Shown in pieces: positions 1,976-62,326 of a stretch of 64,000 nt of DNA. The stretch lies in IMG/VR virus record IMGVR_UViG_3300004774_000001; one strand, 5' to 3'. The translations under genes were made by a program, and so were the position numbers. The notes under the pieces were generated by a model. That model saw only the letters and a program-made list of their open reading frames with translations. It was not told the origin of the DNA and ran no database searches. Each line of letters starts with the position of its first letter. Position 1 is the first letter of the stretch. Origin of the DNA: an uncultured virus (IMG/VR IMGVR_UViG_3300004774_000001). Lineage: Duplodnaviria > Heunggongvirae > Uroviricota > Caudoviricetes.

Positions 1976-2478
1976 TTACACCGATGGTAACTTCAGAAAT
2001 TATCGATGGTCGATTGAAGGTTCATATCGATCTGAAGACTGGTGGAAATCCCAACCATGACGAGCACGGGAGGTTTGCTGAAGGATCTGGCGGTGTGTCT
2101 GAAGGAGATGTGAACTCCAAAATGCGGGCATATGGAGGGATACAGTCTTATGTGGGCCCTAGGACATACCCAAAGCACGAAGGTGAAATCCCACAACGAC
2201 AAAAGGATGTTACCGAGGTCTTAAAGACACATGCGTTGATGAAATTCGTAACGGTGGAGAAATTGGTCAGCGAGTCAGGAAACAAGAAGAATCCAGAGGC
2301 ATTCTTGAAAGAACTACATGAATGGTTATGGCGTAGACCAAGTGCTTGGCAGGGAGAGATAGCAAATAAGCGATATGGTAAATATGCTGTGAGAATAAAC
2401 GAGAGGAATATAGGTCTTATCAGAGTAGTTCCTAAGCGGAAGAATGCTGGTGGAGTCTCCCTCGGTGTTGAGATATGA
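1972..2478 (+). CDS. NPNHDEHGRF-tagged protein with DGRLKVHIDLK leader, unknown cargo domain
   Basis: The ATG at 1972 overlaps the upstream stop and is a better start than 1927. Tag at 2047-2076. Confidence 0.7.
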   Translation: MITPMVTSEIIDGRLKVHIDLKTGGNPNHDEHGRFAEGSGGVSEGDVNSKMRAYGGIQSYVGPRTYPKHEGEIPQRQKDVTEVLKTHALMKFVTVEKLVSESGNKKNPEAFLKELHEWLWRRPSAWQGEIANKRYGKYAVRINERNIGLIRVVPKRKNAGGVSLGVEI

Positions 2479-3728: not shown

Positions 3729-5477
3729 ATGTCAACTATGACGACAGCCCTCGCACGATCCGGCTCTGTGATCACGGCTGCCTATGAGACTGCCCTGTCA
3801 ATGAAAGCAGCGGGAATGCTTCCCGATATGGCCCCACAATCAGGACTTGCCCAGTTCGGAGCCTTCAGGGATGATGTCCAAAACAAGCAGCGGTATTCTT
3901 TATTCAGGGGCTGGCTTTATTCTGCCATCAACGCACTAGCAAGTGAGGCCGCTGGACAGCCGGTAGTCGTTGCATCTCTGAAGGGGAAGGTAAAGGCTCC
4001 GACAGGGAAGAAGTCCATCCGCAACAAAATGACAACGACGGCTAGGGTGAAGGCAGCCCAGCAGGACTTTGAGGTACTGGTTGATCATCCTCTTCTCGAC
4101 TTGCTCGAGACACCGAACCCGATTCAGAACAGATGGCAATTCGTCTATAGTTTCGTCGCCAACTTGAACCTCACCGGATGGTCATACATTATCGGCGGCG
4201 AGAATGAAGAGGGGGAGTACGAGTTCTACTCGCTGCCAACAACATGGATTAAGCCAGACCACAGGGATGGACCGTTTAGCCGATTCAAGGTAGTCGATCC
4301 AGCTAACCCGAAAGCTGGTGGGGATGAAGACGAATGGCTGACTAGGGAGAATGTGGCATTCGCTATGCTCCCGAATCCGGCTGATCCTCGCATGGCAATG
4401 GCCCCAGTCCAGTCACAGAATCCCGCCGTGCGGATTGACGACTTCATTCAGACGTCTCAGATGCAGTTCTTCGACAACGGTATCTTCCCGTCAGCGATAG
4501 TGACGATTGGTAAAGACCCACATCCTGATGTCCCAGGAGGAATTCGACCTCGGCTGACGGCAGCCCAGCGGAGGCAGGTCACTGGGGCGATCAGGAAGGT
4601 AATGGCCGGCGTCGCCAACTATGGCAACCCGGCGATTGTGGATGGCATGATTGAAAGCATCGAACGACTGACAATGACATCTAACGAGATGGGCTGGGAC
4701 AAGTCGGAAGACAAGAACCGCACCAGAATCCTATCTGCGTTTGGCGTTCATCCGTATATCCTCGGTGAGCCGGTAGGAGTGGGTGGGTATGCCCAGGTTG
4801 CAAATATTGAGAAGCGATTCTACAAGCGAGTGAACACGTTCCTCGATATGTTGGGGACTGTAGTCACCAACTTCGTTGGGTCAGCTGTTAGTGAGAATGC
4901 TGAAAACCTGTTTGTATGGTGGGAGGAGTGCCAAAGCGTTGATCCTCAGCTTCGGTGGTCGAACCTCAACGCCGCTCGGACTCGCGGGGACATCTCAAGA
5001 AATGAAATCCGCACTGAGTTGGGGCTGCCGCCGGATGAGACTGGTGGTGAGGCAACAAAGAACTACGCTGCGACTGATGTCACGGCAATCGTCGCAGTAC
5101 AGGCTGCCGTTGCCAGTGGTGGGATTTCACCCGAGCAGGCGGCCGCCCTCTATGTCTTAGCATTTGACATGGCACCGGAGGATGCAAAGAAGATCGCTGG
5201 GCCAAAGCCGAAGCCCCAACCAGTAGCCCCTGGAGGCGTTCCTGGAATTCCGGGTCAGCCTGGGAAGCCGGAAGGCAAGCCGGGGGCGTTCGGGAAACCG
5301 GCTGGTGGGGCTTCGGCCGATGAAGAGGAAGTCCCTCCGACTGAAGAAGAGGCTATGAGCAAAGCAACGAAGTCGTTAGAACTCGCAGTCGCGACGTTCG
5401 GACTTCAGACGTACAAAGGGTCGCTGCCTTCCTCGATTGTGGACCGGCTGCTAGAAGTCGTGGGTGAAGAATCATGA
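3729..5477 (+). CDS. Phage portal protein (HK97-like)
   Basis: HPLLDLLETPNPIQN, FFDNGIFP and ILSAFGVHPYILG motifs, NEIRTELGLPP, and a Pro/Gly-rich C-terminal tail. Confidence 0.92.
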   Translation: MSTMTTALARSGSVITAAYETALSMKAAGMLPDMAPQSGLAQFGAFRDDVQNKQRYSLFRGWLYSAINALASEAAGQPVVVASLKGKVKAPTGKKSIRNKMTTTARVKAAQQDFEVLVDHPLLDLLETPNPIQNRWQFVYSFVANLNLTGWSYIIGGENEEGEYEFYSLPTTWIKPDHRDGPFSRFKVVDPANPKAGGDEDEWLTRENVAFAMLPNPADPRMAMAPVQSQNPAVRIDDFIQTSQMQFFDNGIFPSAIVTIGKDPHPDVPGGIRPRLTAAQRRQVTGAIRKVMAGVANYGNPAIVDGMIESIERLTMTSNEMGWDKSEDKNRTRILSAFGVHPYILGEPVGVGGYAQVANIEKRFYKRVNTFLDMLGTVVTNFVGSAVSENAENLFVWWEECQSVDPQLRWSNLNAARTRGDISRNEIRTELGLPPDETGGEATKNYAATDVTAIVAVQAAVASGGISPEQAAALYVLAFDMAPEDAKKIAGPKPKPQPVAPGGVPGIPGQPGKPEGKPGAFGKPAGGASADEEEVPPTEEEAMSKATKSLELAVATFGLQTYKGSLPSSIVDRLLEVVGEES

Positions 5478-8400
5478 GCATAGCAGTTCTCGAAAAGACT
5501 GGCGGTGGAAATCCCAATCATGATGAGCATGGGAGGTTTGCTAGTGGTCGTGGACAGTCAATCCTGGATAAGCCGATAATTCACAGTTCGCAGGGGTTTG
5601 GAGAGGGTGTTGAGCCGACGCTTTGGCCGAGCGTGGATTTTGGTGCAGGTACATTTGGAGGACGGACTAGGCTAGGGCCGAACGCAGCCGATAGATATGG
5701 TCACATCGAGACTGTTCAACTATGTGACGTTTATGCTACTCAGGACGTGGTGCAACCATTCATCGTCGATCAATACGCACATGGAGAAAGACCGGTATAC
5801 GAACTGCCAAGACTTCTTAGATACAATGGGAAGTTACATGTAGATGATGGGCACCACCGACTAGAGGCTGCACGATTAAATGGGGAGACATCGATACGTG
5901 CTATCGTGGTTGATGTGGATAAGCATGGCCTGCCCTTAAAGTGGATAGATGAGAATCCAGAAAGTGCAAGAGAAGCCATTCAGATCCATGAGATGAGACA
6001 ACGGGAGAAATCCCCCTCCCGCCTCACCATCCTCCGCAAAGCCCTCGAAGTCACTCATCTAGCTCTCGACATCAAGCGCCAGCTGCTGTCGAAGGAACTG
6101 AAGAAAGCCGTCGTTCGCGGCGTCCATCTGAAGCAAGCAGAACAGGCCGAGAAGGAACTGACGGATGCTTTGGTCGGGTTGTTCAAAGAGCAGTTTAAGG
6201 CTGCGGCGAATCATATCAGCAAAGATGGTAAGACTGAGTTTAACCCCCGCGACTGGGACGATGCCCTAGTCGATACCTGCATGCCGGTGCTGATGAAGCA
6301 TGCCGGGCTGGCTGCCGCTGCTCAGATGATGTTGATGGGTGTCGATGTCAGCAGGCGGAAGAGGAAGATGGAGAAGTCTGGCGGAGGAAATCCCAACCAT
6401 GATGAGCATGGGGGGTTCGCTAGTGGGGCTTACACTGCGACTGAAGGAAAGGATCGCTCTGGAAAACCAGATCGCGATGATGTTCTGAATATAGTAGCGG
6501 ATGTTCGGGATAGGTGGGGCTACCAAGGTGGGGTATCTTTGGTCGACGGTCAGGGTGGGGAGTTTGAGCGTGGTGGGCTGAAATGGAGAACAGCTGGGCA
6601 GTGTCAGATTGCAGGGAGTGTTACGCAGATTGCAGGGAGTGTTACGATTTGGAGGGATACTGATTGGAGCTCGGTGGAATCGGTAGTGAGTTTAACAGCT
6701 CACGAAATGATGCATGGTACGTACCAAAAGATACAAGATAAGTATGACGGAGAGCAAAAACAGCTGACCGGGGATCATATCAGAATGAATGGTCAGTTGA
6801 AAGAGGAATACAGAGATCAGTTTCCTGTCTATGCTAGAATGTGGGAGCTGTATCAGGGGTCGAGGAATCCCAAAGTTGGGGACGATCAGTGGTTTCAAAA
6901 AGATGACGGGGTGAGTGAATATAGCAAAGCGTACTGGAGGGATTATGAGGCTGGTAAGTGTTCGCTTTCTACGGCTATTCACGAAACACTGGCTGAGATC
7001 GCGGGTGAACACGAATCAACTGGGGTGCTGGTCGGGAGTAGGCGGTATAGGGATTTCTACAAAGCCGTTAGGGATGAATACAGGGTCGAGATTGGTCAGT
7101 CGAGATTCAGAAGAGGGCCGGGGGTTCCAAAAAAGAGCGTTTCTGGACACACTGAAATCATCCCACACGAATTGTATTTTGACGCTGATTTTCGCCCGAC
7201 CAATCCAGAGAATGCTAGGTATGTTCGCTATTGGAACTCTGATGGAACAACTGGGATAGGAGTTCGCTCTGAGGAGCAGAAATCCCCCTCCCACCTCACC
7301 ATCCGAACCAAAACCACCGCCACCGATTTCCTTCAGAATCTGGAAGACTACGATGTCATCGACCTCTCCGGCATGGTCTTCACTCTTCCATCCGGTCTAG
7401 AAATCACTCTCGGCTTCATGACCGAGTGGCCGGAATGGATGAAGGTCGAAATCGTCGATCAGATCAAAGTGGCGTTCAGCCAGGGCTACTGGGTAGGAAT
7501 CAACGACACGACCGCGAACGGGATTGAATCCTACGTCCAGAAGGGACTGGAGAACGGGGATTCGATTGCCGACATCCGAGCGGCGATGGTGGGGGACGGG
7601 CTTGACGAATACTACTTCGGGCGAGGAAAGAACATTGCTAGAACAGAGGCAGGAAACGTCTTGAACGGTGCTCGATCCTCAGCGATGAATCGATTGCAGG
7701 AGGAGATCCCTGGACTGCAGGCAAAGAAGACATGGCTGAGTGTGCTGGGGACAACGACGAGGGACACGCATGCTCACTTGGATGGTGTGCCGGCAGATGA
7801 AGAGGGGATGTGGGTACTGGCTGGGATTCAGATACCGTGGCCAGGGCACTTTAGTCTACCGCCGGGCGAGCGTTGTTCGTGTCAATGCTCAATCGTTCAT
7901 TCTTGGGGCATGGGTGATTCGACGGCCGAGGGGCTGATCGCAGATTATAACGAAAGACTGCAACAGGAGAAATCTAATCCCAATCATGACCCAAGATCCG
8001 GGCGATTTTCCTCTGGCTCTGGGGGATCTCAGCAGCAGAAGCCAGCTAGCACAGCCCATACCGAAACCGTTCATGAGATCTCGAGCAAGATTAAGAAATC
8101 GAGTGACAACTTGGAAGGCGGGGCTAACGTAACGAAGATCCTTGAGATAGAAGCGGGCGGGATAACAAAGAAGGCCATTTTCAAACCCATTGATGGTGAG
8201 AACCCACATGTCAACCCAGCATTTCTCGGCCGGCAGAGTATTTGTGAAGTGGCATCTTCCATCGTTAGTGAGGAGATGGGGCTCGACCTCGTAGCAAAGA
8301 CGGCGATGGTGACCGTAAGCGGGAAGCGAGGATCACTGGCGAGCTGGGTGAACGATACGGCTACTTTGGCCGTTGACCTAATTGAAGAGCGATTCGCCGC

Positions 8401-9808
8401 TAACAGCGAAGAAAAGATGTGGATGAAGTTGAGTAGTGATGGTGTTAAGGGCGTCAACGATATGGTGTTCTTTGACGTCCTGACAGGTAACGCCGACCGT
8501 CATCTGGGGAATTGGTTGGTCAAGAATGGTGAAGTTAAGCCGATTGACAATGGGATGTCGTTTGCGCGGAACGATGAGTATATGGCAGGGGGGTTGCGGT
8601 TCCGCACTTTGGAGTCGGCACCGAAATCGATGGCCTATCAGTCGATGTCCCCAGCATTCAAAGCCGGGCTGGGGAATCTGTTAGAGAATAGGGACAAGGT
8701 GGATGCTAGGTTGGAGAACGCCGGGCTGGATCACAGGACGAGGGATTCATTCTGGAAGAGAGCAGTTTACTTGTCCAAGACGAGGATGCTGGGGATCAAT
8801 GGTAGGACTCTCCACGATGTTGCTCGGTTATCTGAGGGTTTAGATCTTTTCGCTTCGGTCGGTGACATCCAGACGAAGATGGTTGATGGGGTGTTGCAGA
8901 TTGAGATCGATCTAAAGACTGGTGGTGGGAATCCCAACCACGACGAGCATGGGCGGTTTGCCAGTAGGGTACTAACGCAGAACGAGATTAAAGCCATATC
9001 TGAATGGAGAGAACACCTGTGGAATCGTGGAATCGTAACTAAACTAGCACAAGAAACGATCAGGGGCGGATCGTTAGCGAAGTACCATCCAGGTGAAATG
9101 ATGGTGTACCGTGGTGGGAATATGCTAAGAACTGGCTCTTCGTGGTCAAAATCTAGGGAAGTGGCAGAAGAATATGCGGATGGTGGAAGAATCGAGGAAT
9201 TACATCTCACTTTGGACACGCCCGCGCTGGATATCAATAGGGTTCTATCCGCGATACCGTCAAAGAGTGAACGTGATGAGGAGGTATTCATCCCTCCACC
9301 GAGACGGAAATCTAACCCCAACCACGATGAACACGGGAGGTTCGCTAGCGGGAATGGAAGTTCCGGATCTCGTGTTTTTTATCGTGGGACAACAGAAGCC
9401 GCGGTTAGGGCGATCCTCAGAGACGGAATGCATCCTGGAAAGGGTGGCGGTGCAGAGGAGGATTGGGAAACTGGAATTGAGGATGGCTATGGGGGAGAGG
9501 ACGAGATAATCTCGGCGGGAAGACGTGCTTCAGTATATTTTACTTCTGACATTGAGATTGCCGACAGATATGCGAAACGAGCGAGCGAGCTTCGCGGGAG
9601 AAAGCCGGTTATCCTTGAAATTCATATTCCTACCGATGCTTCATCGCCCATTAAGCCGGATGGATCGCAGTATGCGTCGTATCGAGTAGAGCAGTCGATT
9701 CCAGCGGCTTGGATCAAGCGGTATGATAAATCCAAGGTAAAAGCTGATAACACTGGATCGCTATGGTATGCTGTTGTCCATGTCCCTATTAGGAGTCAGG
9801 ATAGATGA
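5474..9808 (+). CDS. MuF (SPP1 gp7-like) minor head polyprotein carrying five tagged effector modules
   Basis: MuF core IARTE...KTWLS...TRDTH...RCSCQC (~7600-7900). Other domains: ParB-like DDGHHR, zincin HEMMH, kinase-like DRHLGN/IDNG, and two ART-like domains (YRG...SSWS...E; FYRGT...VYFT). Five NPNHD tags. Confidence 0.85.
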   Translation: MSIAVLEKTGGGNPNHDEHGRFASGRGQSILDKPIIHSSQGFGEGVEPTLWPSVDFGAGTFGGRTRLGPNAADRYGHIETVQLCDVYATQDVVQPFIVDQYAHGERPVYELPRLLRYNGKLHVDDGHHRLEAARLNGETSIRAIVVDVDKHGLPLKWIDENPESAREAIQIHEMRQREKSPSRLTILRKALEVTHLALDIKRQLLSKELKKAVVRGVHLKQAEQAEKELTDALVGLFKEQFKAAANHISKDGKTEFNPRDWDDALVDTCMPVLMKHAGLAAAAQMMLMGVDVSRRKRKMEKSGGGNPNHDEHGGFASGAYTATEGKDRSGKPDRDDVLNIVADVRDRWGYQGGVSLVDGQGGEFERGGLKWRTAGQCQIAGSVTQIAGSVTIWRDTDWSSVESVVSLTAHEMMHGTYQKIQDKYDGEQKQLTGDHIRMNGQLKEEYRDQFPVYARMWELYQGSRNPKVGDDQWFQKDDGVSEYSKAYWRDYEAGKCSLSTAIHETLAEIAGEHESTGVLVGSRRYRDFYKAVRDEYRVEIGQSRFRRGPGVPKKSVSGHTEIIPHELYFDADFRPTNPENARYVRYWNSDGTTGIGVRSEEQKSPSHLTIRTKTTATDFLQNLEDYDVIDLSGMVFTLPSGLEITLGFMTEWPEWMKVEIVDQIKVAFSQGYWVGINDTTANGIESYVQKGLENGDSIADIRAAMVGDGLDEYYFGRGKNIARTEAGNVLNGARSSAMNRLQEEIPGLQAKKTWLSVLGTTTRDTHAHLDGVPADEEGMWVLAGIQIPWPGHFSLPPGERCSCQCSIVHSWGMGDSTAEGLIADYNERLQQEKSNPNHDPRSGRFSSGSGGSQQQKPASTAHTETVHEISSKIKKSSDNLEGGANVTKILEIEAGGITKKAIFKPIDGENPHVNPAFLGRQSICEVASSIVSEEMGLDLVAKTAMVTVSGKRGSLASWVNDTATLAVDLIEERFAANSEEKMWMKLSSDGVKGVNDMVFFDVLTGNADRHLGNWLVKNGEVKPIDNGMSFARNDEYMAGGLRFRTLESAPKSMAYQSMSPAFKAGLGNLLENRDKVDARLENAGLDHRTRDSFWKRAVYLSKTRMLGINGRTLHDVARLSEGLDLFASVGDIQTKMVDGVLQIEIDLKTGGGNPNHDEHGRFASRVLTQNEIKAISEWREHLWNRGIVTKLAQETIRGGSLAKYHPGEMMVYRGGNMLRTGSSWSKSREVAEEYADGGRIEELHLTLDTPALDINRVLSAIPSKSERDEEVFIPPPRRKSNPNHDEHGRFASGNGSSGSRVFYRGTTEAAVRAILRDGMHPGKGGGAEEDWETGIEDGYGGEDEIISAGRRASVYFTSDIEIADRYAKRASELRGRKPVILEIHIPTDASSPIKPDGSQYASYRVEQSIPAAWIKRYDKSKVKADNTGSLWYAVVHVPIRSQDR

Positions 9809-10995
9809 TATACTCTGTAACTACGTCCGCTAAAGTCGTTGACGGTCGATTGAAGGTTCATATCGACTTGAAGCGAAATGATGAACACATCGCGGCGGGG
9901 AATCCGCGGGGTGGTCAGTTTGCATCGAAGCGAGACTCCGTTGCCATCGGGACTCCGGTCGGTGCCGTTCGGGAGGGCAAAGGCAAAGAGGCTAAGATCG
10001 TACTCGCCAATGGTTCCCCAGCCCCGGCCCATATCCAAGCTGCTATGATCCCACCGGCCTGGAAGGATGTGAAGGTCTATACCGACCCGAAATCGGAAGT
10101 CTGGGTCGAGGCAACCAATGTGACGAAGCGGGGCGTGGTCAACTCAGTAAAGGTTTATTCTCCATCGTATGCCGCTTCTCAACAGGAAGCAAAGCACGTC
10201 CGTGTTGAGCAGATGTTGAAGGAGGCGCCTAATATCGACAAGCAGATCCAGCAGGGGAGAAAGAATCCGAAGACCAAAGAGGAAGCGGATTGTGCCCTGC
10301 TAATTTCAAAGCAGGCGACACGGCCGGGTAGCGATACTGACACTAAGGGACTTGAGAAGCACTATGGAGTGAAGGTGACACCGGACAATGTGATTGTGTC
10401 ATCTGGTGCCAAAGGAAAGACTAAAGTTGAACTCGAAGTCAACGGCGAACGGATTCACATCCGTGATGAGGGTGCGGCAGCTCAGCTGATTGCCAGAAAG
10501 CAATCCGGCGAGGGACTCCACGATTCGACTTATTGGTTGAAGTCGCACGGGGCTACGACTCTAGAAGGCAGGAACGTGGTCCAAGGAAAGGACGGTGTGC
10601 GGCTTCAGTTTATGGGCAAGGAGGGTGTCTGGCACGATCATCTAATCAAAGATCCAGAAGTCGCCAAGATGCTGACAGACAGAGCGAAGACTGCCAAAGA
10701 GAGGGATGGCCGCCTGTTTGATACTGATAACACCAAGCTGGCCTCCTACGTGAAGACTTTAGATACGGGGCGATTCTCTCCGAAAGACTTCCGCACGAAG
10801 GTCGCTAACGAGATCGCAGCGAGGGAGCTGCAGTCATATGCTGGCAAGACGCCAAAAGATGCGAAGCAGCGGGAGGAATGGATAAAGACTATCGCGACAA
10901 CCGTGTCGAGGACTCTAGGGAATAAGCCAGCCCAGTGCGTCGAGAGCTACATCAACCCCCACGTATGGGATATTTGGCCGTCAGCGGCCGCATGA
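9805..10995 (+). CDS. DNA topoisomerase IB (bacterial/poxvirus-like) with DGRLKVHIDLK leader
   Basis: IPPAWKDV, RPG, F-x-GKEG, KDFRT and LGN...SYI match the type IB catalytic motifs. Confidence 0.85.
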   Translation: MIYSVTTSAKVVDGRLKVHIDLKRNDEHIAAGNPRGGQFASKRDSVAIGTPVGAVREGKGKEAKIVLANGSPAPAHIQAAMIPPAWKDVKVYTDPKSEVWVEATNVTKRGVVNSVKVYSPSYAASQQEAKHVRVEQMLKEAPNIDKQIQQGRKNPKTKEEADCALLISKQATRPGSDTDTKGLEKHYGVKVTPDNVIVSSGAKGKTKVELEVNGERIHIRDEGAAAQLIARKQSGEGLHDSTYWLKSHGATTLEGRNVVQGKDGVRLQFMGKEGVWHDHLIKDPEVAKMLTDRAKTAKERDGRLFDTDNTKLASYVKTLDTGRFSPKDFRTKVANEIAARELQSYAGKTPKDAKQREEWIKTIATTVSRTLGNKPAQCVESYINPHVWDIWPSAAA

Positions 10996-11003
10996 GGTGA
11001 AAT

Positions 11004-11192
11004 ATGGAAGTGTTCGACCTGCCGGCTGAGTATTTCGTTGGCTCTGCCGATGATACGATGACGATTGAAGAGGCTCAAAACGATGCTTCAACTCTCGACG
11101 AGGATCAAGACGAAGATCCCGAGATGTCTGGGGCTGAGAAAAATTATATTAAGCGGATGCTAGGCTTCGATCCGTCAAAGTGGGAGGCGTAA
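11004..11192 (+). CDS. Small acidic protein
   Basis: GAGGTG RBS; Asp/Glu-rich 62 aa. Confidence 0.65.
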   Translation: MEVFDLPAEYFVGSADDTMTIEEAQNDASTLDEDQDEDPEMSGAEKNYIKRMLGFDPSKWEA

Positions 11193-11440
11193 TGGTCAAG
11201 GCAATTGTCTACGAAGTCGGTAACGATGGACAGCAGAATAAAGTCTGCGTGCTAGAGATGCGAACTGGTGTGGTTGTCCCCACTAGCAATCGCCCGCTTG
11301 GCAGTTTCGTTCTATCAAGACCCGTCGTCGATCCAGCCGGACGTAAAATCACTGTGGAGGATGGTGAGGAGTTTCTACGCGCTTTGCCCGCTGCGTATTC
11401 CGGAAGTCGAGTGCGGGTCGGATTAAAGGAGACCCAATGA
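11192..11440 (+). CDS. Hypothetical protein
   Basis: GGAGG RBS; ATG at 11192 overlaps the upstream stop. Confidence 0.6.
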   Translation: MVKAIVYEVGNDGQQNKVCVLEMRTGVVVPTSNRPLGSFVLSRPVVDPAGRKITVEDGEEFLRALPAAYSGSRVRVGLKETQ

Positions 11441-11745
11441 ACAGACCAGATGTCTTGAAACCGAGTATGATGGATGATGTTGCTTTCCCCGACGCCGTCG
11501 AGAGCAGGTTCCTCGATCTTTGCGCCGCCTACAAGCGGACGCATGGGAGCGAACTACTAATCCCGAGTTCGCTGGATCCTGATATACTCCGATGGAGAAC
11601 TCTCCGTGTCCGTCACAAGAAGGGGGATTTCCGCCATACCGAGGCGGAAATGAAATCAACGAAGACGATTGCACAGTGGTTGCTAGACAACAACGCCGAC
11701 CTGCGTAATCAGCCAAGAAAGATCCTCGACGTTCTGAAGGCATGA
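11437..11745 (+). CDS. Hypothetical protein
   Basis: AAGGAG RBS; coupled ORF. Confidence 0.6.
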   Translation: MNRPDVLKPSMMDDVAFPDAVESRFLDLCAAYKRTHGSELLIPSSLDPDILRWRTLRVRHKKGDFRHTEAEMKSTKTIAQWLLDNNADLRNQPRKILDVLKA

Positions 11746-12041
11746 GGGAGATTCAGATGGACGCAACATCCATGCTAGTTGGTATCTTTGTCGGCGGTAT
11801 GCTCTGTGGGATGATAGGATTTCTACTCGGTATCGTCGTTGGTGTCCAATCTGGTAGGGCTGATGCCCTGAAGAAGTGGTGGAAGGCGGCTATCGGAGAT
11901 CAAATATCCACACTTCAGACTGGACAGACTTTTGAGATTGGCTTTTATGTCTGCAAGGATGTGGATGACGACGATGGTGGAGATACAGAAGCGCTGCCGA
12001 ACTCAGACTTCGGTGGTTCTAGCAGGTTCAGCAACAACTAA
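11742..12041 (+). CDS. Single-pass membrane protein
   Basis: Hydrophobic Gly-rich N-terminal helix and acidic tail. Confidence 0.6.
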   Translation: MREIQMDATSMLVGIFVGGMLCGMIGFLLGIVVGVQSGRADALKKWWKAAIGDQISTLQTGQTFEIGFYVCKDVDDDDGGDTEALPNSDFGGSSRFSNN

Positions 12042-12052
12042 GGAGACTTGGT

Positions 12053-12310
12053 ATGCAACCGTTTGGAATCGGAGGAAAGGCAAAGCCGAAACTGGCTGAC
12101 GTGCAGTGCTCACGGATGCAGTTCCAGCCAGGGGATAGAATCCTAGTCCGCGTCTATCGGGCGCTGTCCGAGGAAGAGGAGAAGAAACTTCGGAAGAGCG
12201 TTGAGCGGTGGTCTGGTGGCATCACTGAAGTGCTCGTGATCAACGGATTGGATACGGATGTGACGGTAGAGAAGGGAGTGTCTGATGGATCAAAAATCCT
12301 CCTGCCCTGA
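12053..12310 (+). CDS. Hypothetical protein
   Basis: AAGGAG RBS; 85 aa. Confidence 0.6.
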   Translation: MQPFGIGGKAKPKLADVQCSRMQFQPGDRILVRVYRALSEEEEKKLRKSVERWSGGITEVLVINGLDTDVTVEKGVSDGSKILLP

Positions 12311-12539
12311 AGAGGGATATCGAAAGGCCCTCAAAGACGACCCATCACTCGTGGCGTTCCTCTCTGCCCTCAAAGAATTCGACCGTGCCTTTTGTGACGC
12401 GATGGCCAGTGGAACTGACTTCACCCTGAAGTTGGAAGTTCATGGGAATAGGTCTGAATTGATTCATGCCCGTGTTCAAAATGATAGCTTCCGGCGACCT
12501 GCCGGGGTCGAGAAGAGGGTTGAAAAAGCAGGAGGTTAA
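12285..12539 (+). CDS. Hypothetical protein
   Basis: 84 aa ORF overlapping the previous gene. Confidence 0.55.
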   Translation: MDQKSSCPEEGYRKALKDDPSLVAFLSALKEFDRAFCDAMASGTDFTLKLEVHGNRSELIHARVQNDSFRRPAGVEKRVEKAGG

Positions 12540-12615
12540 AATTCCCCGAAAATTCTGTATAGGAAATCCTACTGGATTCCCGTATTATACAGACACACGA
12601 GACGTCTAGGCGTGA

Positions 12616-12662
12616 GGGCCGCGGCGAGGTAACACCTTCCATTTCCGCGGCCTTTGTTTTTT
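12616..12662 (+). terminator. Terminator-like hairpin
   Basis: GGCCGCGG...CCGCGGCC followed by TTTGTTTTTT. Confidence 0.5.
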
Positions 12663-12672
12663 GGGGAATGAC

Positions 12673-13236
12673 ATGAGCAAGATTGTAAATTTCTACCTTG
12701 GGCCAGCACTCGGCCTAACATCACGGACCGTAACGATCACCCGCATGTATCGGGCTGGTGACGACGCACCGCCTGCCGCTGCGTATGGTCCGACTAACGT
12801 CGGTGGATCAGCGACCACTCTTTCCGTATCGCTTGACGACAACGTTATCTACCAGGCGAAACTGATCGATGTCTTGACCGGCGGGGGGACGAGCGCCCCG
12901 GACATCCTGAACTTCCACACGGGCGACCTACAATTTCCCGGACCGCGTTCTGACGACCGACTCCAGATCCTTTCGATGGAAGACGAGTCGAGTGCATCGA
13001 GTTCCAATTCCTCGACTAGTTCTAGCAGCTCGGCGAGCAGTTCGACTAGTAGTTCAATCAGTACCAGCTCACTGAGTACTTCGAGTTCACTAAGCTCGAG
13101 CAGCCCGTCCAGTAGCTCGTCGCATAGTGACTCATCGCTAAGCTCGAGCAGCCCGTCCAGTAGCTCGTCGCACAGCACGTCAACCAGCTCTTCTAGCTCG
13201 CAGTCGAGCGAGAGTTCAAGTTCTGAAGGAGTATAA
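12673..13236 (+). CDS. Virion-region protein with beta-rich N-domain and poly-Ser C-terminal tail
   Basis: About 80-residue Ser-rich tail; ATG at 12673 preferred as start. Confidence 0.75.
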   Translation: MSKIVNFYLGPALGLTSRTVTITRMYRAGDDAPPAAAYGPTNVGGSATTLSVSLDDNVIYQAKLIDVLTGGGTSAPDILNFHTGDLQFPGPRSDDRLQILSMEDESSASSSNSSTSSSSSASSSTSSSISTSSLSTSSSLSSSSPSSSSSHSDSSLSSSSPSSSSSHSTSTSSSSSQSSESSSSEGV

Positions 13237-13239
13237 CGT

Positions 13240-13590
13240 ATGGCGGAGAGAAGGAAGCTTGATACCCACCCGCAACTGGCGGGTGGGACATCCAGGTACA
13301 AAGTTCAGAGTCGGGCATTGGATGACAATGGGTTCAATTCCGTTGTCCGTCTGATCAAAACCGGCCGGCTTGCCCAGATTGACCAGATCAAGGAAGCCGT
13401 GTTCACTAACATGAAGCGGTTGCGTCTCCATACCAAGGGATTCAATGCCATCGTTGGTATCCCGGAAGGCAGCGATCAGATCGACATCGGAACGATCATC
13501 TCCTGGGCCGGTGGAGTCGGACGGAAGGATGAGCCGGCAAAAGAGCAGCTTGTTCTTCTCGCCGTTACCATCAACGCAAGGCTGGTCTAG
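13240..13590 (+). CDS. Hypothetical protein
   Basis: AAGGAG RBS; 116 aa. Confidence 0.6.
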   Translation: MAERRKLDTHPQLAGGTSRYKVQSRALDDNGFNSVVRLIKTGRLAQIDQIKEAVFTNMKRLRLHTKGFNAIVGIPEGSDQIDIGTIISWAGGVGRKDEPAKEQLVLLAVTINARLV

Positions 13591-13624
13591 TCTACCAACG
13601 TACTGTGATGCAAGGAAGAAAGAA

Positions 13625-15091
13625 ATGAGCCAAAAACTGCTCGAAGCCATTCAAGAACGCCAGCAGAAGCACACTGAGTTCGGGTATGGCATTCTGACTG
13701 CTGATCGGTACGTCCGCAACGTCCTCGATGCCATCGGTGTTGATAAGTGCTATCGATATGCTGCCACGAGGTCTGTCTCGTGGAATGACGTGATGGAGAA
13801 AGCTGCTCACACGTTGGTCTATTCCAATCCAGACATGATCACTGAAGAGATCAGCTACAGTAAACGTGCGGGCAGTTCTTTGAAAGAATATGACGACATC
13901 GAGCTACCGAAGAACACCCTGATGGTATTCAAGCACGTCTTGACCACGCCCCGAAAGGATCGGGATGGTGACGTGTTGCGGACGCAAGGCGCCTCGGTCG
14001 ACCCGAAGATGCTCTTGCTTTGGCAGCACGTCCATACGATGCCGATCGGCAAGATGCTCACCATCGCCGAGCATAACAGCAAGAAGTTGACGCTGGTCTC
14101 CTGCATCGTGGACATGAATGACTTGAGTCATGACGCTGCGGTGATGATCGACAACGACATGGGTCGGTTTAGCCATGGCTTCCGGGCGATCGAGTTCAAC
14201 AAGATCAAGGCAGAGGGCGGACACGAGGGCGGGTTTGATGTGACTGCTTTTGAAATTATGGAAGCCTCTTTGGTTTCGGTTCCGTCGAATACCGATGCCG
14301 ATGTTGAAGAAGTGATCCTGTCTTTGGTTGAAGGCAGGAAGCTGACTAGCCCGATCATGAAAGAAGTTGGCCGGTCGATCCGTGAGAAGCAACCGACGCG
14401 AATCACGTTACCTGTGGATCTGAAGATCACCCTGAACGGTAAGGAGATCTCCAATGAGGAGCTCAGCGGAAGTGGAAGCGATGCGACAAAGGGAGCAGGA
14501 GAAGAACAAGACGGCACCCGCACATCAGAAAAAGCCGATGCAAAAGCAGGAGACGGAAAAGCAGAGGAAGCAGCCACCGACACGGAAATGAAGTGCCCGA
14601 AGTGCGGAGCGATGATGCCGAAGAGTTCGAAGAAGTGTCCCAAGTGCGGACACGTGATGACGGCGGAGGATTTGAATCCGGAGAAGAGCTTCGACGGTGA
14701 GAAATCCGGTCGAGCTTTGAGCTGCAAGAACTTGGACCGTCTGAAAGAAATCCACGGGGACATGAAAGAGCTTCACACCGGCAGTCATATCATGAGCCCA
14801 CGGGGACGGGACCTGTGTGAGAAGTGCGTCAAGGGAATGGGGTCGATGATTGAGGAACATGACAGGCCAGATCGACCGGAAGAGGAAGAAGAGAACGCCG
14901 AGGGTGAAGGTGGGATGTTCAGTCGAGGGAAGCGCTCGATGGAAGATGCAATCGGTCAAGTCATTTCCAACGCAACGCCCCAGCAACGGGATACGATCCG
15001 GAAAACGTTCGATGCGTTGGACAAGGTCGAGGGGCAGAACAAACTGGCAGAAGAATTCCGAACTCTTGTGAGTTCAGATCATAAAGGGTGA
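13625..15091 (+). CDS. Prohead protease (HK97-type) with C-terminal Zn-ribbon/scaffold extension
   Basis: DRDGD, LLWQH, PIGK, FSHGF and EASLVSVPSN motifs; CPKCG twice. ATG at 13625 follows AAGGAAG. Confidence 0.88.
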   Translation: MSQKLLEAIQERQQKHTEFGYGILTADRYVRNVLDAIGVDKCYRYAATRSVSWNDVMEKAAHTLVYSNPDMITEEISYSKRAGSSLKEYDDIELPKNTLMVFKHVLTTPRKDRDGDVLRTQGASVDPKMLLLWQHVHTMPIGKMLTIAEHNSKKLTLVSCIVDMNDLSHDAAVMIDNDMGRFSHGFRAIEFNKIKAEGGHEGGFDVTAFEIMEASLVSVPSNTDADVEEVILSLVEGRKLTSPIMKEVGRSIREKQPTRITLPVDLKITLNGKEISNEELSGSGSDATKGAGEEQDGTRTSEKADAKAGDGKAEEAATDTEMKCPKCGAMMPKSSKKCPKCGHVMTAEDLNPEKSFDGEKSGRALSCKNLDRLKEIHGDMKELHTGSHIMSPRGRDLCEKCVKGMGSMIEEHDRPDRPEEEEENAEGEGGMFSRGKRSMEDAIGQVISNATPQQRDTIRKTFDALDKVEGQNKLAEEFRTLVSSDHKG

Positions 15092-15152
15092 AGTCGCCGG
15101 CGGTCGTCGATGATCCCTGTGTTTCATGGGTTTCAGAAGTGAGGTTACGAAC

Positions 15153-16799
15153 GTGAAGATTACGAAAGGTCTGAAGACGTGGATCAAGGCGAACTGCGAT
15201 GTTGAAGACATCGCGGATGAAGCTGAGTTCCAGAAAGCCGCCGGCGTTGCTCTCGGTACGGGCAAGCTCTCGGTGGAGAAGTTCGCAGAATTGGCTAAGG
15301 ACGAGGATGCCGACAACGCGTCTGAGTTCAACAAGCAGCTGTCTGCTCTTGGTAAAGGCATCGCCGACCTGACCAAGATGCTGAGTGCGAAGCCGGCCGA
15401 AGATAAGCCGGAAGAGACCAAGAAGGTCGAAGTCGAGGCGAAGGAGAAGCCGGAAGCGACGGACAAAAAGACTGACGTCACCTGGCACAAGTCGATCAAG
15501 CGGATGATGAACTTGGAACCGCCGACCGACGAGGAGGGGAACATTCGGGTCAAGGGTGCGTGGGAGCAGTACTCCACGACCAAGACTGCCATGCGGTTCC
15601 CGAACCAAACCAAGAGCGGCCGTCCCCATCCATTCGCTGGGAAGCAGGTCGTTGATTTTTCCGATAGTGGACGTCCGCTCGATGAACCGTCCGATCTGGA
15701 CAAAGCGGTCGCCGGCTCGTTCGCCAAGTTGCTGTGCGCCACGGCCCAGCGTGGCGGAAGCCGGACGTTTGGTTTCCAGGCCCTGCCGCAGCACGACAAG
15801 GAAATCCTCCATTATGCGATGGAGAAGATGCCGTGGGGTGGTGTGTCCTCAATCACCAACACTGACGCGGACAACTATGCCGACATCAAGAATCGCCTGC
15901 TGACTCCTCGGGAGCAGAAGGCGTTGATTGACGATGCGACTTCTGGTGGCCTGGAAGCGGCCCCGATCGTGTTCGACGACCAAGTGATCCAGACGCCCTT
16001 CCTCAACGGCGAGCTGTTCCCGCTGGTCAATTCGGTTCCGCTCGACCGCGGTCGCCGGATTGAAGCCGTCGCCGTTGGTCACGTGACGTCGAGCTGGGGT
16101 GGAGTTGATGATTCCGCCATCACCTTGTTCACGACGACCTCCTTCGTGACCGCCTTCGACACTACGATCTTCCGATGGCAGGGTGCGATCAAGATCGGCC
16201 TGGACTTCCTCAGTGACACGCCGATTGACTTCGGTCAGATCGTGACCCAGCAGTACGGCGAGAAGCTGCTGGAAGACCTCGACGACGTGGTCGCGACCGG
16301 CAACGGAACGACGCAGCCGGAGGGTGTGATGAATAAGACCGGTACTACGACGGTTGCATGGGGTGGAACCACCTCGATCGGCAACTACGAATCCCTGCGG
16401 TTCGGAGTCGCCAAGAAGGAACACAAGGCGGCCGGACTCGGTACTGCTGTGTTCTGCGGGACGGAAACCTCCTTTCAGCGGATGAAGGCCATCCCAGTCG
16501 GAACCGGGGACGCTCGCCGCCTGTTCGGTGGTGGCTTCATGGGAACGTCGAACTATGATGACTACACCATGATGCAGCGGCCGTACAAGATCAACGAGAG
16601 TCTCACCAACTCACAGGTCTTCTACGCGATCCTCAACAAGTACCGGATGTACCGCCGCCGTGGTCTGACGATGCGGACCTCACAGGAAGGTGACACGCTG
16701 ATTCGTGCCAATGAGTTACTCATGATTGCGATGGCGCGTTACGGTGGACACCTCGAGCGTGGTGCTGTAGCCGCGAAGACGACCACTGCCCCCGCCTGA
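15153..16799 (+). CDS. Major capsid protein (HK97 fold) with N-terminal delta/scaffold domain
   Basis: Follows the protease. Charged N-terminal scaffold, QK/ALIDD...GG candidate maturation site, and GNGTTQPEGV. GTG start after GAGG. Confidence 0.88.
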   Translation: MKITKGLKTWIKANCDVEDIADEAEFQKAAGVALGTGKLSVEKFAELAKDEDADNASEFNKQLSALGKGIADLTKMLSAKPAEDKPEETKKVEVEAKEKPEATDKKTDVTWHKSIKRMMNLEPPTDEEGNIRVKGAWEQYSTTKTAMRFPNQTKSGRPHPFAGKQVVDFSDSGRPLDEPSDLDKAVAGSFAKLLCATAQRGGSRTFGFQALPQHDKEILHYAMEKMPWGGVSSITNTDADNYADIKNRLLTPREQKALIDDATSGGLEAAPIVFDDQVIQTPFLNGELFPLVNSVPLDRGRRIEAVAVGHVTSSWGGVDDSAITLFTTTSFVTAFDTTIFRWQGAIKIGLDFLSDTPIDFGQIVTQQYGEKLLEDLDDVVATGNGTTQPEGVMNKTGTTTVAWGGTTSIGNYESLRFGVAKKEHKAAGLGTAVFCGTETSFQRMKAIPVGTGDARRLFGGGFMGTSNYDDYTMMQRPYKINESLTNSQVFYAILNKYRMYRRRGLTMRTSQEGDTLIRANELLMIAMARYGGHLERGAVAAKTTTAPA

Positions 16800-17505: not shown

Positions 17506-17952
17506 ATGTCTGCGGCAACTGATGCAGCGTATGCTAGGAGATCAGGACGGTCAGCTGCCGCAGCGTTGGAAGTACAGTGGTTCGTTCAAGACTTCCACAA
17601 CCGAATGGACGTATCACTGAGGCAGAGAGTTCAAGTGGCAGTTGTGTTTCTGCAAGACGCGATAGTGAAGAACATCAGTGTTCCGGTTGTGAAGAAGATC
17701 GTCAACGGAAGAACAATCGTCACGAAGAGAAGCAAACCAGGTGAATTTCCCAGAGCGGACACCACACAGCTGATGAAGACGATCTTCAACGACGTGGTTG
17801 ATTATGGGAACGGAGTGATTCATGGATACGTGGGGACGCCACTCGGGTATGGGCTTGAGTTAGAGACGTTGAAACAGCGCCAGTTCCTGACTAGGACGTT
17901 GAATGAGGAGATAGGAAACATCACTGGGTTGCTTACAGGACCGATAGTATGA
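17506..17952 (+). CDS. HK97 gp10-like neck/tail component
   Basis: SKPGEFPRADT, VGTPLGYGLELE and R-x-FL motifs. Confidence 0.7.
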   Translation: MSAATDAAYARRSGRSAAAALEVQWFVQDFHNRMDVSLRQRVQVAVVFLQDAIVKNISVPVVKKIVNGRTIVTKRSKPGEFPRADTTQLMKTIFNDVVDYGNGVIHGYVGTPLGYGLELETLKQRQFLTRTLNEEIGNITGLLTGPIV

Positions 17953-18500
17953 CTCCCATCGAACGCAAAGCTGCCGAGGTTCAACTAGGGGTGCTGAAAC
18001 TTCAGCACCTCATGTTGAGCCAGAAGTTCAACGAGAACCACGACGAACACGGGCGATTTGCCAGTGGGGATAGTCAGAGCGGTTCTGGTGGGAGCTCTGG
18101 TGGAGAGACATCGTCTGCGATGACAGTGGCTGAAGCCCATAAGAAGATGGGCAATGCTATGGGTGGTAAGACCGGTGGTGACTACAAAGTCGGGGATGTG
18201 ATTGGTCATCCTCGATATCGTGGCTTTGTCATCACCGATAAGAACAGCCAAGGCTACAAAGCATATCATCCGAGCAACGGCCCGCAGGCGACGACGAGTA
18301 TCAAGAATGGTTGGGTGGCTGATAGGACGGGTGGCAAGACCGGCGGTGACTACAAAGTTGGGGATCAGATCAGTCACTCCAGATACCGTGGTTTTATCAT
18401 CACAGATAAGAATAGTCAGGGGTACACGGCGTACCATCCGAGCAACGGCCCGCAGGCGACGACGCACATCAAGAATAGTTGGGTGGCTGAGGGGCGGTAG
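17949..18500 (+). CDS. NENHDEHGRF-tagged protein with a duplicated 56-aa domain
   Basis: Tag at 18030-18059; tandem 168-bp repeat starting at 18162 and 18330. Confidence 0.75.
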   Translation: MTPIERKAAEVQLGVLKLQHLMLSQKFNENHDEHGRFASGDSQSGSGGSSGGETSSAMTVAEAHKKMGNAMGGKTGGDYKVGDVIGHPRYRGFVITDKNSQGYKAYHPSNGPQATTSIKNGWVADRTGGKTGGDYKVGDQISHSRYRGFIITDKNSQGYTAYHPSNGPQATTHIKNSWVAEGR

Positions 18501-19010: not shown

Positions 19011-19805
19011 ATGTCAAACAGAAGCCTATCGAGCCCGAAAATCATCGCTCAGATCTCTGCCCAGATCCAGAACACACTGGATGATGGGACGGTCATCGCT
19101 GCTTCGTTCCTCGCCAACGTGAGTGGTATGCTGGAGAGTGGGGTCGGAGCGAGCTTAGTGAATCGTGGTTGGCAGTGGAAGCATGCAACCGCCAACCCAA
19201 AGACGATCCTCAGTGGGGCCAACGTCGTCATCGATGTATATGACTTCGCCGGACTCGATCAAGGGGCAGGCGCCGGTAATGATGCTGTTGGACAGGCCCT
19301 GACTCTTGAGAGCATTGTCGCGGTGATGGTCAAGAATGAGAATGCGGTCGGTGATGCCGGATCGCTCGAGATCGAACCCGATGCCACCAATGGGTGGACG
19401 CCTATCGGAATTCATACCGTTGCGACTGGCGGGGCCGTACGTGGCGGTGGGTTGATCCTGAAGTACCAGCCGGACGCCACTGGGTTCAACGTCTCGGACG
19501 GCTCGAAGAACAGGATCAAGCTAACAGCCAACGGCGGGGATGTTGACTATAGCGTTTGGATCCTTGGTAGAAGTGACGATGAGACGAGCAGCTCCAGCTC
19601 GTCTAGCAGCGGGATGAGCAGCTCCAGCTCCTCACCGAGTTCGAGCAGCAAGTCGAGTTCGAGTAGCTATAGCCATTCGACAAGTTCAAGCAGTTCGAGT
19701 TCGATCTCGACGTCCGGAAGTTCAAGCAGTTCACAAAGCTCAAGTAGTTCGAGCTCGAGCAGTTCGAGTTCGTCTTCGAGCCAGAGTTCGAGTAGCCTGA
19801 ATTAG
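19011..19805 (+). CDS. Virion-region protein with poly-Ser C-terminal tail
   Basis: Beta-rich N-domain and about 70 aa Ser tail. Confidence 0.75.
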   Translation: MSNRSLSSPKIIAQISAQIQNTLDDGTVIAASFLANVSGMLESGVGASLVNRGWQWKHATANPKTILSGANVVIDVYDFAGLDQGAGAGNDAVGQALTLESIVAVMVKNENAVGDAGSLEIEPDATNGWTPIGIHTVATGGAVRGGGLILKYQPDATGFNVSDGSKNRIKLTANGGDVDYSVWILGRSDDETSSSSSSSSGMSSSSSSPSSSSKSSSSSYSHSTSSSSSSSISTSGSSSSSQSSSSSSSSSSSSSSSQSSSSLN

Positions 19806-60676: not shown

Positions 60677-60685
60677 GACCGAATC

Positions 60686-61575: not shown

Positions 61576-62324
61576 GTGAAACAGACGCAACTGTGAAGTC
61601 TGAAATCGTTGACGGTCGATTGAAGGTTCATATCGACATCAAAGAGAACCCGAACCACGATCAACGCGGGCGGTTTGCCAGTGGGGGAGGATCTGGTGGG
61701 TCCTCGGCGAGGGTGTCTGTCAAGGTGTCGGTCGATCCAGAGACACTGGGGAGACTGAAGCGCAAGGCTGACAAGGAAGAGATACAGCAGACTGCGGTGG
61801 AGGTTGAGAAGTCACTCGCTGGTGTTGCAGAGCGTTGCCAGAAGTTGACTGACCAGCTGCCAAAGTCTGAGATGGGTATTCGGTTGAAGGGGACACCGTT
61901 CTGGATCTCGAAGAATGGGCAGGGAGCGACGACTGGACAGTATGATAAAGAGACCGGCACGGCTGAGGTCGCCGGCTTCGGGCATCCCGCAACATCGGAC
62001 CATTTGAAGGGCGGGCAGTTCTCGTTGAGTGATGCAGTCTCAGATATTGCCACCCATGAGTTCGGCCACCATCTTCTTGAGCAAATGCTCGCCGCCAACG
62101 GAGGGAAGGGTGTCGGGGAGCCTGGCCGTCTGGTCAATATCTGGAAGGTGACCCCGAAGAGTGAGCTCCGCAAGTTGAGTCAGTACGCGGCGGACCATCC
62201 AGCTGAGATGTTCTGCGAGGGACTGCTCGCCTACACGCATCCTAGTTATGGTACTAAGAACGGTGCCAAGATGCCGAAGGCGCTGGCGAAATACTTCGAC
62301 GATGTAATCGGGAAAGGAAAATAA
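61572..62324 (+). CDS. NPNHDQRGRF-tagged zincin metallopeptidase with DGRLKVHIDIK leader
   Basis: HEFGH plus LSQYA...EMFCE; tag at 61647-61676. Confidence 0.75.
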   Translation: MSETDATVKSEIVDGRLKVHIDIKENPNHDQRGRFASGGGSGGSSARVSVKVSVDPETLGRLKRKADKEEIQQTAVEVEKSLAGVAERCQKLTDQLPKSEMGIRLKGTPFWISKNGQGATTGQYDKETGTAEVAGFGHPATSDHLKGGQFSLSDAVSDIATHEFGHHLLEQMLAANGGKGVGEPGRLVNIWKVTPKSELRKLSQYAADHPAEMFCEGLLAYTHPSYGTKNGAKMPKALAKYFDDVIGKGK

Positions 62325-62326
62325 CG

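What the first reader, a model, noticed from the sequence alone, without database searches (positions are those of the whole stretch)
9805..11192. Topoisomerase IB carrying the cargo leader, followed by a small acidic protein
Seen: type IB catalytic motifs appear intact, the gene lies in the head operon right after MuF, and it bears the leader plus a tag variant. Known: poxviruses package topoisomerase IB in virions for early transcription. Inference: a tailed phage may inject its own topoisomerase, and the acidic 62 aa protein at 11004 could be a DNA-mimic inhibitor.
Basis: partly seen in the sequence, partly recalled or inferred. Interest (0 to 1): 0.72.

Follow-up and report, generated by a model that had tools for sequence, protein, structure and literature searches.

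The report
Phage head topoisomerase with dedicated inhibitor
This uncultured phage encodes, among its head-building genes, an intact DNA-relaxing enzyme (type IB topoisomerase) with a "load me into the capsid" type leader, followed by a tiny acidic protein that travels with this enzyme in many phages and is predicted to plug its active site, so the enzyme is probably injected with the DNA and kept switched off while the virus is being built.

Summary
Observation confirmed. 9805-10995 is an intact bacterial-type TopIB (R173, K272, K327, R330, N373, Y382), overlapping the MuF stop and carrying the shared leader (leave-one-out 27.6 bits, shuffles at most 8.2). Among 81 non-redundant relatives, 34 are fused to portal or MuF by Pfam and 69 lie by head genes. 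The acidic 62-aa protein is a dedicated partner: within 1.3 kb downstream in 60 of 67 TopIB-found loci, 0 of 76 cellular TopIB loci, and 35 of 37 copies found independently have TopIB upstream. A predicted complex scores 0.74 (best control 0.00) and covers five of six catalytic residues. Best reading: a mobile virion-cargo topoisomerase plus inhibitor, built like a MuF toxin-immunity pair. Packaging, injection, activity and purpose are untested. Phage TopIB as such is known (jumbo phages); I found no paper on this head-cargo clade or its partner. This scan reported the same cassette three times on other DNA.

The parts
9805..10995 (+). Type IB topoisomerase gene, 396 aa, stand-alone, translationally coupled to MuF
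9805..9873 (+). Cargo leader (aa 1-23), predicted beta-hairpin ending in I-D-L-K, putative prohead-protease site after Lys23
   Evidence: cleavage inferred
9874..9927 (+). Tag variant (aa 24-41), disordered in the model
9937..10164 (+). Poxvirus/bacterial-type N-terminal DNA-binding domain (aa 45-120)
   Evidence: PF21338 weak, E 0.015; aligned to 2f4q and 2h7f; model pLDDT >90
10165..10992 (+). Catalytic domain; R173 (10321), K272 (10618), K327 (10783), R330 (10792), N373 (10921), Y382 nucleophile (10948)
10351..10539 (+). 63-64 aa insertion (aa 183-245), an internal duplicate of the following sheet-plus-helix element; marks one subclade
   Evidence: HHalign probability 85.7, E 5.5e-6, three control segments at most 1.3%; 14 of 82 representatives, one side of a branch
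11004..11192 (+). 62-aa acidic partner ending in L-G-F-D-P; predicted TopIB inhibitor; no leader or tag
11192..11440 (+). 82-aa protein of unknown function, coupled to the partner gene; fused N-terminally to TopIB in close relatives
   Evidence: P0002, P0004, P0006, P0028; 3 of 82 loci only
5474..9808 (+). MuF polyprotein (MuF, PI3/4-kinase-like, ParB-like and other modules) with five tags and one internal leader copy (8861-8917)
3729..5477 (+). HK97-type portal (context)
   Evidence: PF04860
13445..15091 (+). Prohead protease ORF (true start probably later); holds V-D-L-K at 14414 just behind the protease domain, the only [IV]D[LI]K in the window outside the four leaders
   Evidence: PF04586 weak, PHROGs 80
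1981..2037 (+). Leader copy on another tagged stand-alone gene (ORF 1927-2478)
61587..61643 (+). Leader copy on a third stand-alone tagged gene (61572-62324); shares an exact 32-nt repeat with the TopIB leader

Best explanation
A mobile two-gene cassette: a virion-cargo type IB topoisomerase and its own inhibitor. (1) Shown from sequence: the enzyme is complete and belongs to a phage clade that sits in head modules. (2) Inferred: it is made late with the head proteins, drawn into the prohead by the leader (in most relatives by fusion to portal or MuF instead), trimmed after Lys23 by the prohead protease so that the tag becomes its new N-terminus, and delivered with the DNA. (3) Supported by linkage and a predicted complex: the untagged acidic protein, translated right behind it, binds over the catalytic pocket and keeps the abundant late-made enzyme from relaxing or nicking host and phage DNA in the producing cell. 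(4) Least certain: in the new host the few delivered copies act as an ATP-independent swivel on the incoming genome during entry, circularisation and first transcription. Step odds: active enzyme 0.85, packaged 0.75, partner binds and inhibits 0.75, swivel on the phage's own DNA 0.5.
For: Catalytic residues: K272, K327, R330, N373, Y382 invariant and R173 nearly so in 35 aligned homologues, matching the pentad with Asn for His of active bacterial TopIBs (PMC2666729). Fusions: of 57 representatives with a long N-terminal extension (57 of 82 scanned), 30 carry a portal domain of four families, 4 MuF, 9 only other cargo enzymes, 14 no Pfam hit. Head marker within the fetched flank in 69 of 81, weak in 3, none in 9 (hand count). 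Residue before tags follows head type: Asp over Lys in 20 of 23 DUF1073/DUF2213 loci, Lys over Asp in 4 of 5 HK97/S78 loci, no reversals; all 8 other tags in this window have a Lys 1-4 residues upstream and the leader end recurs in the protease. Partner: at most 120 nt downstream in 54, within 1.3 kb in 6, absent in 5, flank cut in 2 of 67 TopIB-found representatives; 0 of 76 cellular TopIB loci; 35 of 37 independently found copies have TopIB within 1.5 kb upstream; its distances follow TopIB distances (rho 0.71, 70 pairs, Mantel p 0.001), also across different head types. Predicted complex: score 0.74, best of 3 controls 0.00; the mark was reached by 116 of 157 solved complexes and 2 of 215 mismatched pairs; runs agree in at least 83% of contacts, partner pLDDT at least 69; interface includes R173, K272, K327, N373, Y382. 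Precedents: T4 capsid-targeting propeptides removed by the prohead protease (PMC9026906); small immunity ORF behind MuF toxins (PMC5576092).
Against: No experiment and no cultured member: tblastn of 50,697 phage records finds only distant TopIBs. The tag here is degenerate, and close relative L021 has an in-frame stop between leader and tag. 5 of 67 loci had no profile hit for the partner (two show diverged copies by eye, one has it 3.1 kb away) and 9 of 81 have no head marker in the flank. In 34 of 146 family members the partner is fused to the N-terminus of longer proteins, some of them MuF or cargo chains, so it may enter the prohead too. The tag-residue test uses related phages and only 5 HK97-type loci, so its p (9e-5) is overstated. 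An acidic chain on a basic DNA-binding surface may be favoured by charge; the controls were unrelated natural proteins, not acidic decoys. Nothing here shows which DNA the enzyme acts on.
Confidence: 0.55

Rival explanations
1. Same cassette, but the enzyme is an offensive effector: once injected it strips negative supercoils from, or leaves covalent nicks in, the host chromosome or resident plasmids and prophages; the acidic protein is a classical immunity protein.
For: Gene order equals MuF toxin plus immunity (PMC5576092); it shares chains with ADP-ribosyltransferase, NUDIX, 2H and InPase modules that Iyer 2017 treats as conflict effectors; P. aeruginosa TopIB was toxic when expressed in E. 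coli (PMC2666729).
Against: A portal fusion gives about 12 copies per particle (recalled portal stoichiometry), few against host gyrase; the full religation pentad is kept, which a nicking toxin would not need.
Confidence: 0.2
2. The enzyme works during assembly, not after infection: tethered at the portal or inside the prohead it relieves torsion during DNA packaging, and is not ejected; the partner switches it off outside the head.
For: Portal is the commonest fusion partner, 30 of 57.
Against: Here and in many relatives it is stand-alone or joined to unrelated cargo enzymes; a tag and protease-type site separate it from the portal; a deletion that removes the catalytic domain is carried by some phages (L125, L156), so it is dispensable.
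Confidence: 0.12
3. The acidic protein is a chaperone, loader or activator rather than an inhibitor, or stays bound in the virion as a subunit.
For: Tight one-to-one coupling fits any obligate partner; it is sometimes fused to head proteins.
Against: The predicted pose occupies the catalytic pocket and DNA-facing helices, which is hard to reconcile with activity; cellular and jumbo-phage TopIBs fold and work without it.
Confidence: 0.08
4. An ordinary late or moron gene: a cytoplasmic topoisomerase whose leader is a by-product of recombination between short repeats; never packaged.
For: The leader is copied at DNA level (45 of 57 nt identical to the 61572 copy, 32 nt exact); the tag is degenerate.
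Against: Clade-wide portal/MuF fusions and head location; leader kept with amino-acid conservation despite DNA divergence (30 of 57 nt to the MuF copy) and in relatives P0002, P0004, P0006.
Confidence: 0.05

Closest known systems
Bacterial type IB topoisomerase (D. radiodurans TopIB, PDB 2f4q/3m4a; P. aeruginosa TopIB, PMC2666729)
   Same: Two-domain build, R-K-K-R-N pentad and Tyr nucleophile, best sequence and fold match.
   Different: Separate clade; leader and tag; 64-aa duplicated insert; head-module location; dedicated acidic partner absent from 76 cellular loci.
Poxvirus TopIB (vaccinia/variola, PDB 2h7f, 3igc, 1a41)
   Same: Same fold and chemistry; encapsidated and mainly serving early transcription (PMC12188299 passage and reference titles).
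   Different: His in place of Asn373; acts inside the core with a virion transcription machinery; no known inhibitor partner (recalled); packaging here is only inferred.
Jumbo-phage TopIB (Lu11, PaBG, Motura, NCTB, phiRSL1; Iyer et al. 2021, PMC7824862)
   Same: Phage-encoded type IB topoisomerase.
   Different: 540-610 aa, 23-27% identical to a clade member; in Lu11 and RHph_N28_1 no tag, no acidic partner, neighbours are not head genes.
MuF polymorphic toxins with immunity ORF (Jamet et al. 2017, PMC5576092) and phage polyvalent proteins (Iyer et al. 2017, PMC5512222)
   Same: Enzyme module on MuF or portal, next to ART, 2H, InPase, NUDIX modules; small ORF directly downstream.
   Different: Neither main text names a topoisomerase as such a module; here the gene is stand-alone with a leader; toxicity not shown.
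T4 capsid-targeting sequence on internal proteins (PMC9026906)
   Same: Short shared N-terminal propeptide on unrelated proteins, ending in a prohead-protease-type site.
   Different: No sequence relation seen; about 23 aa, ends in Lys, also occurs inside a polyprotein, and is followed by a retained tag; function untested.

Membership tests
Type IB topoisomerase (bacterial/poxvirus type) | Catalytic pentad Arg-Lys-Lys-Arg-His/Asn and Tyr nucleophile | tested here: met
   R173, K272, K327, R330, N373, Y382
Type IB topoisomerase (bacterial/poxvirus type) | Short N-terminal domain plus TopIB catalytic fold | tested here: met
   Model pLDDT 88.9; all 21 Foldseek matches at E up to 0.001 that are shown are TopIB; PF01028 above cut-off
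Type IB topoisomerase (bacterial/poxvirus type) | ATP-independent relaxation through a 3'-phosphotyrosine intermediate | not testable with these tools
   needs an assay
Cellular bacterial TopIB clade | Branches inside cellular sequences | tested here: not met
   15 cellular rows form one side of a branch (96/99); the window's enzyme lies in the phage group. Cellular sample is narrow; actinobacterial rows were dropped
MuF polymorphic toxin-immunity system | Effector is the C-terminal part of a MuF protein | tested here: not met
   Here a separate gene overlapping the MuF stop; met in 4 relatives
MuF polymorphic toxin-immunity system | Small cognate ORF directly downstream | tested here: met
MuF polymorphic toxin-immunity system | Toxicity neutralised by the small ORF | not testable with these tools
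   needs expression test
Capsid-targeting propeptide (T4 CTS-like) | Shared N-terminal peptide on unrelated proteins ending in a protease-type site | tested here: met
Capsid-targeting propeptide (T4 CTS-like) | Sufficient for packaging and removed by the prohead protease | not testable with these tools
   needs virion proteomics or reporter fusion
DNA-mimic proteins | Acidic surface occupying the target's DNA-binding site | tested here: inconclusive
   Net charge -14 and predicted pose over the active site, but no stable fold alone (pLDDT 0.41); may be a folding-on-binding competitive inhibitor
Tyrosine recombinase/integrase | His-x-x-Arg motif and recombinase fold as best match | tested here: not met
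   Lys327-x-x-Arg330; recombinases match only at E above 0.01

The most novel reading that the evidence does not exclude
A widespread, undescribed clade of virion-delivered type IB topoisomerases in tailed phages, controlled by the first dedicated protein-inhibitor family of a type IB topoisomerase (an active-site plug ending in L-G-F-D-P); this clade is sister to, or the source of, cellular bacterial TopIB, the missing viral group that Forterre and Gadelle 2009 predicted.
Probability: 0.4. Interest if true: 0.85.

Novelty: new variant of a known kind. Interest (0 to 1): 0.72.

Why it matters
It would add DNA-topology control to the enzymes that tailed phages carry in the head, in phages of at least four portal families, and give a natural protein inhibitor of a type IB topoisomerase, an enzyme class known mainly as a drug target; both claims are testable with two small recombinant proteins. 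The clade also bears on a stated open question: Forterre and Gadelle (PMC2647321) suggested that bacterial TopIB came from a viral group with no known member. The leader may be a portable packaging signal for HK97-type heads.

Tried and rejected
No whole genome is held for this window. Pfam and PHROGs have no family for the 62-aa or 82-aa proteins; the ESM Atlas gave nothing usable for the 62-aa protein. The 82-aa protein is not a general third part: 3 of 82 loci by profile, only itself in a protein search limited to 45-144 residues. The insert folded alone (pLDDT 84) gave no match at Z 5 or more; three TopIB chains appear at Z 2.6-3.3 among unrelated small folds, too weak to count. Sigma-70 promoter and terminator scan of 9000-13600: chance level, none on the coding strand. 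Sequencing runs: no RNA holder listed. Rooted tree with two jumbo-phage TopIBs as outgroup: one phage row (L106) falls outside cellular plus the other 39, but holding all 40 phage rows together is not rejected (p-AU 0.23), so direction of transfer is undecided; 9 of 24 chosen cellular rows were dropped by my motif filter. My first partner count had a filter error and is replaced. Mis-assembly at the 32-nt leader repeat was considered: Logan contigs break there, but relative L021 has the same order, cargo kinase chain, leader, TopIB, partner, 82-aa gene. Integrase/recombinase identity rejected. Literature searches without a paper on this system: 0 papers; 0 papers.
Full report
Setting. The window is an HK97-like tailed phage: portal 3729-5477, MuF polyprotein 5474-9808, prohead protease ORF 13445-15091, capsid 15126-16799. 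The finding covers the two genes right after MuF: 9805-10995 (396 aa), whose start overlaps the MuF stop, and 11004-11192 (62 aa), followed with another overlap by an 82-aa gene.

The enzyme. PF01028 matches above its cut-off (E 1.3e-11). The only significant solved relative by single-sequence search is D. radiodurans TopIB; a profile of 35 homologues finds it at E 1e-35, then archaeal, variola and human enzymes. The model (pLDDT 88.9) matches TopIB structures first. The pentad and nucleophile named in PMC2666729 (passages) map to R173, K272, K327, R330, N373 and Y382; five are invariant and R173 nearly so in the 35 rows. Asn in place of His is the bacterial form. Residues 183-245 are an insertion found in 14 of 82 representatives that form one side of a branch; profile comparison shows it is a duplicate of the sheet-plus-helix element that follows (probability 85.7, three control segments at most 1.3%). 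Its role is unknown; it folds on its own and leaves the catalytic residues in place.

Leader and tag. The leader has four copies in the window. A profile of the three others scores the TopIB copy 27.6 bits against at most 8.2 in 20 codon shuffles. It ends in I-D-L-K; this motif class occurs five times in six frames, in the four leaders and once in the prohead protease behind its catalytic domain, where relative L020 keeps it (about 0.04 expected in that protein, 1.7 in all six frames). All 8 other tags have a Lys one to four residues upstream. Across relatives the residue before tags follows head type: Asp over Lys in 20 of 23 DUF1073/DUF2213 loci with tags, Lys over Asp in 4 of 5 HK97/S78 loci, no reversal; lambda- and Mu-type loci mostly show neither. 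These phages are related, so the p value (9e-5) is only a guide. The pattern is what cleavage by each phage's own prohead protease would give; T4 propeptides are the precedent (PMC9026906, passages). No cut was measured. The TopIB tag lacks the core of the other tags but resembles tag types of other phages.

The clade. TopIB searches and partner searches gave 141 loci with a full catalytic core, 82 after removing near-duplicates, one of them cellular. The viral search found 137 loci and kept the best 80. Of 57 representatives with over 140 extra N-terminal residues, 30 carry a portal domain (17 PF06381, 9 PF05136, 2 PF04860, 2 PF06074; a few below cut-off), 4 MuF, 9 only other cargo enzymes, 14 no hit. 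By hand count, 69 of 81 have a clear head marker in the fetched flank, 3 a weak one, 9 none. In trees the phage sequences and the cellular ones fall on different sides. With two jumbo-phage enzymes as outgroup the root position is undecided (p-AU 0.23).

The partner. A profile of 12 copies finds 148 clusters at 50% identity; I dropped two low-complexity hits and built a profile from 146. The domain starts within the first 30 residues in 145 of 146 and never has a tag upstream; 112 are short stand-alone proteins, 34 are fused to longer chains. Forward test: among 67 representatives found through TopIB (the window's own copy included; 14 found through the partner left out), it lies at most 120 nt downstream in 54, within 1.3 kb in 6, is absent in 5, and the flank is cut in 2; 0 of 76 cellular TopIB loci have it. 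The profile was seeded from such loci, so about a dozen of these hits are circular. Reverse test: a DNA pattern for the partner alone gave 104 stretches; 37 non-redundant ones are real family members, 35 have TopIB within 1.5 kb upstream (one a deletion remnant), one has only 261 nt of flank, one is a second inverted copy on a TopIB contig. The pattern sees only part of the family; the window's own protein as query gave three other loci, all behind TopIB. Partner and enzyme distances correlate (rho 0.71, 70 pairs); partners are 45% identical when the TopIB subclade is shared and the head type differs, 28% when the head type is shared and the subclade differs. So the two genes move as one cassette between head types.

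Complex prediction. Residues 45-394 with the 62-aa protein, each as an alignment: score 0.74, best of 3 controls 0.00; the mark was reached by 116 of 157 solved complexes and 2 of 215 mismatched pairs (counts hold roughly, since my alignments were used); runs agree in at least 83% of contacts, partner pLDDT at least 69. The interface names R173, K272, K327, N373 and Y382; the acidic stretch lies on residues 323-328 and the L-G-F-D-P motif on helices 353-364 and 376-380. This supports binding and an inhibitory pose; it does not show either, and no acidic decoy was among the controls. I saw no solved TopIB-inhibitor complex.

How it most likely works. Made late with the head proteins; held off by its partner in the producing cell; drawn into the prohead by the leader; trimmed after Lys23; delivered with the DNA; acting, most likely, as a swivel on the incoming genome. 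The first two steps of evidence (intact enzyme, exclusive partner) are shown from sequence; binding is predicted; packaging, cleavage and delivery are inferred from fusions and motifs; the purpose is the weakest step, with attack on host DNA topology and a role in packaging as rivals.

What is known. Phage-encoded TopIB is not new: Iyer et al. 2021 name it in Motura, NCTB, phiRSL1, Lu11 and PaBG (PMC7824862, passages), and annotated records agree; the two that I opened are long, distant, untagged and without the partner. Bacteroides phage BS162P1 has a short distant copy without partner. Vaccinia encapsidates its enzyme for early transcription (PMC12188299, passages and reference titles). The main texts of Iyer 2017 (PMC5512222, passages) and Jamet 2017 (PMC5576092, part 1 of 6 and passages) do not name a topoisomerase as MuF or portal cargo; I did not read their supplements, nor that of Iyer 2021, which may list such fusions. 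Forterre and Gadelle 2009 (PMC2647321, passages) list no phage TopIB and predict an unknown viral source of bacterial TopIB. Searches (listings only, apart from the papers named) showed no paper on the head-cargo clade or its partner; subscription papers are not covered. That no protein inhibitor of type IB topoisomerases is known is from recall. This scan reported the cassette three times on other genomes and the cut-site-plus-tag code several times; I saw these after my own tests and do not count them as support.

Verdict. Observation confirmed; interpretation partly supported and strengthened for the inhibitor. A new variant of a known kind (head cargo enzyme plus immunity-like partner), interest 0.72.

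Noticed in passing
window 9836-9867 and about 61606-61637: Exact 32-nt repeat between the leaders of TopIB and of the 61572 gene; it breaks public contigs and suggests recent copying of the leader by recombination.
   Followed up: partly
L021 about 2765-2840: A close relative has an in-frame TAG between leader and tag of its TopIB: sequencing error, read-through or loss of the leader.
   Followed up: no
L125, L156, L203: In-frame deletion that removes the TopIB catalytic domain and fuses the tag and start of the enzyme directly to the acidic partner.
   Followed up: partly
window 17949-18500 and 20265-20380: A second kind of leader (M-T-P-I-E-x-K-A-A-E) occurs twice; the first copy precedes a tag and two internal repeats, the second looks like a stub.
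   Followed up: no
window 8235-8575 within MuF: PI3/PI4-kinase-like module in the MuF polyprotein (PF00454), also present in the cargo chain of L021.
   Followed up: no
window 60203-63396: 7-deazaguanine-type genes (PTPS, GTP cyclohydrolase I) interrupted by the leader-and-tag gene 61572-62324, far from the head module.
   Followed up: no
window 12661-13236 and 19011-19805: Two proteins with long Ser-rich tails; the same is seen, longer, in L020.
   Followed up: no
window 56210-58903: Helicase-like gene that appears by eye to contain an intein; not tested.
   Followed up: no
L143 (same contig as L142): Two inverted copies of the acidic partner gene about 1.1 kb apart, one downstream of TopIB.
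   Followed up: no
L215-L290: Several actinobacterial cellular TopIBs show Asp at the His/Asn position of the pentad.
   Followed up: no
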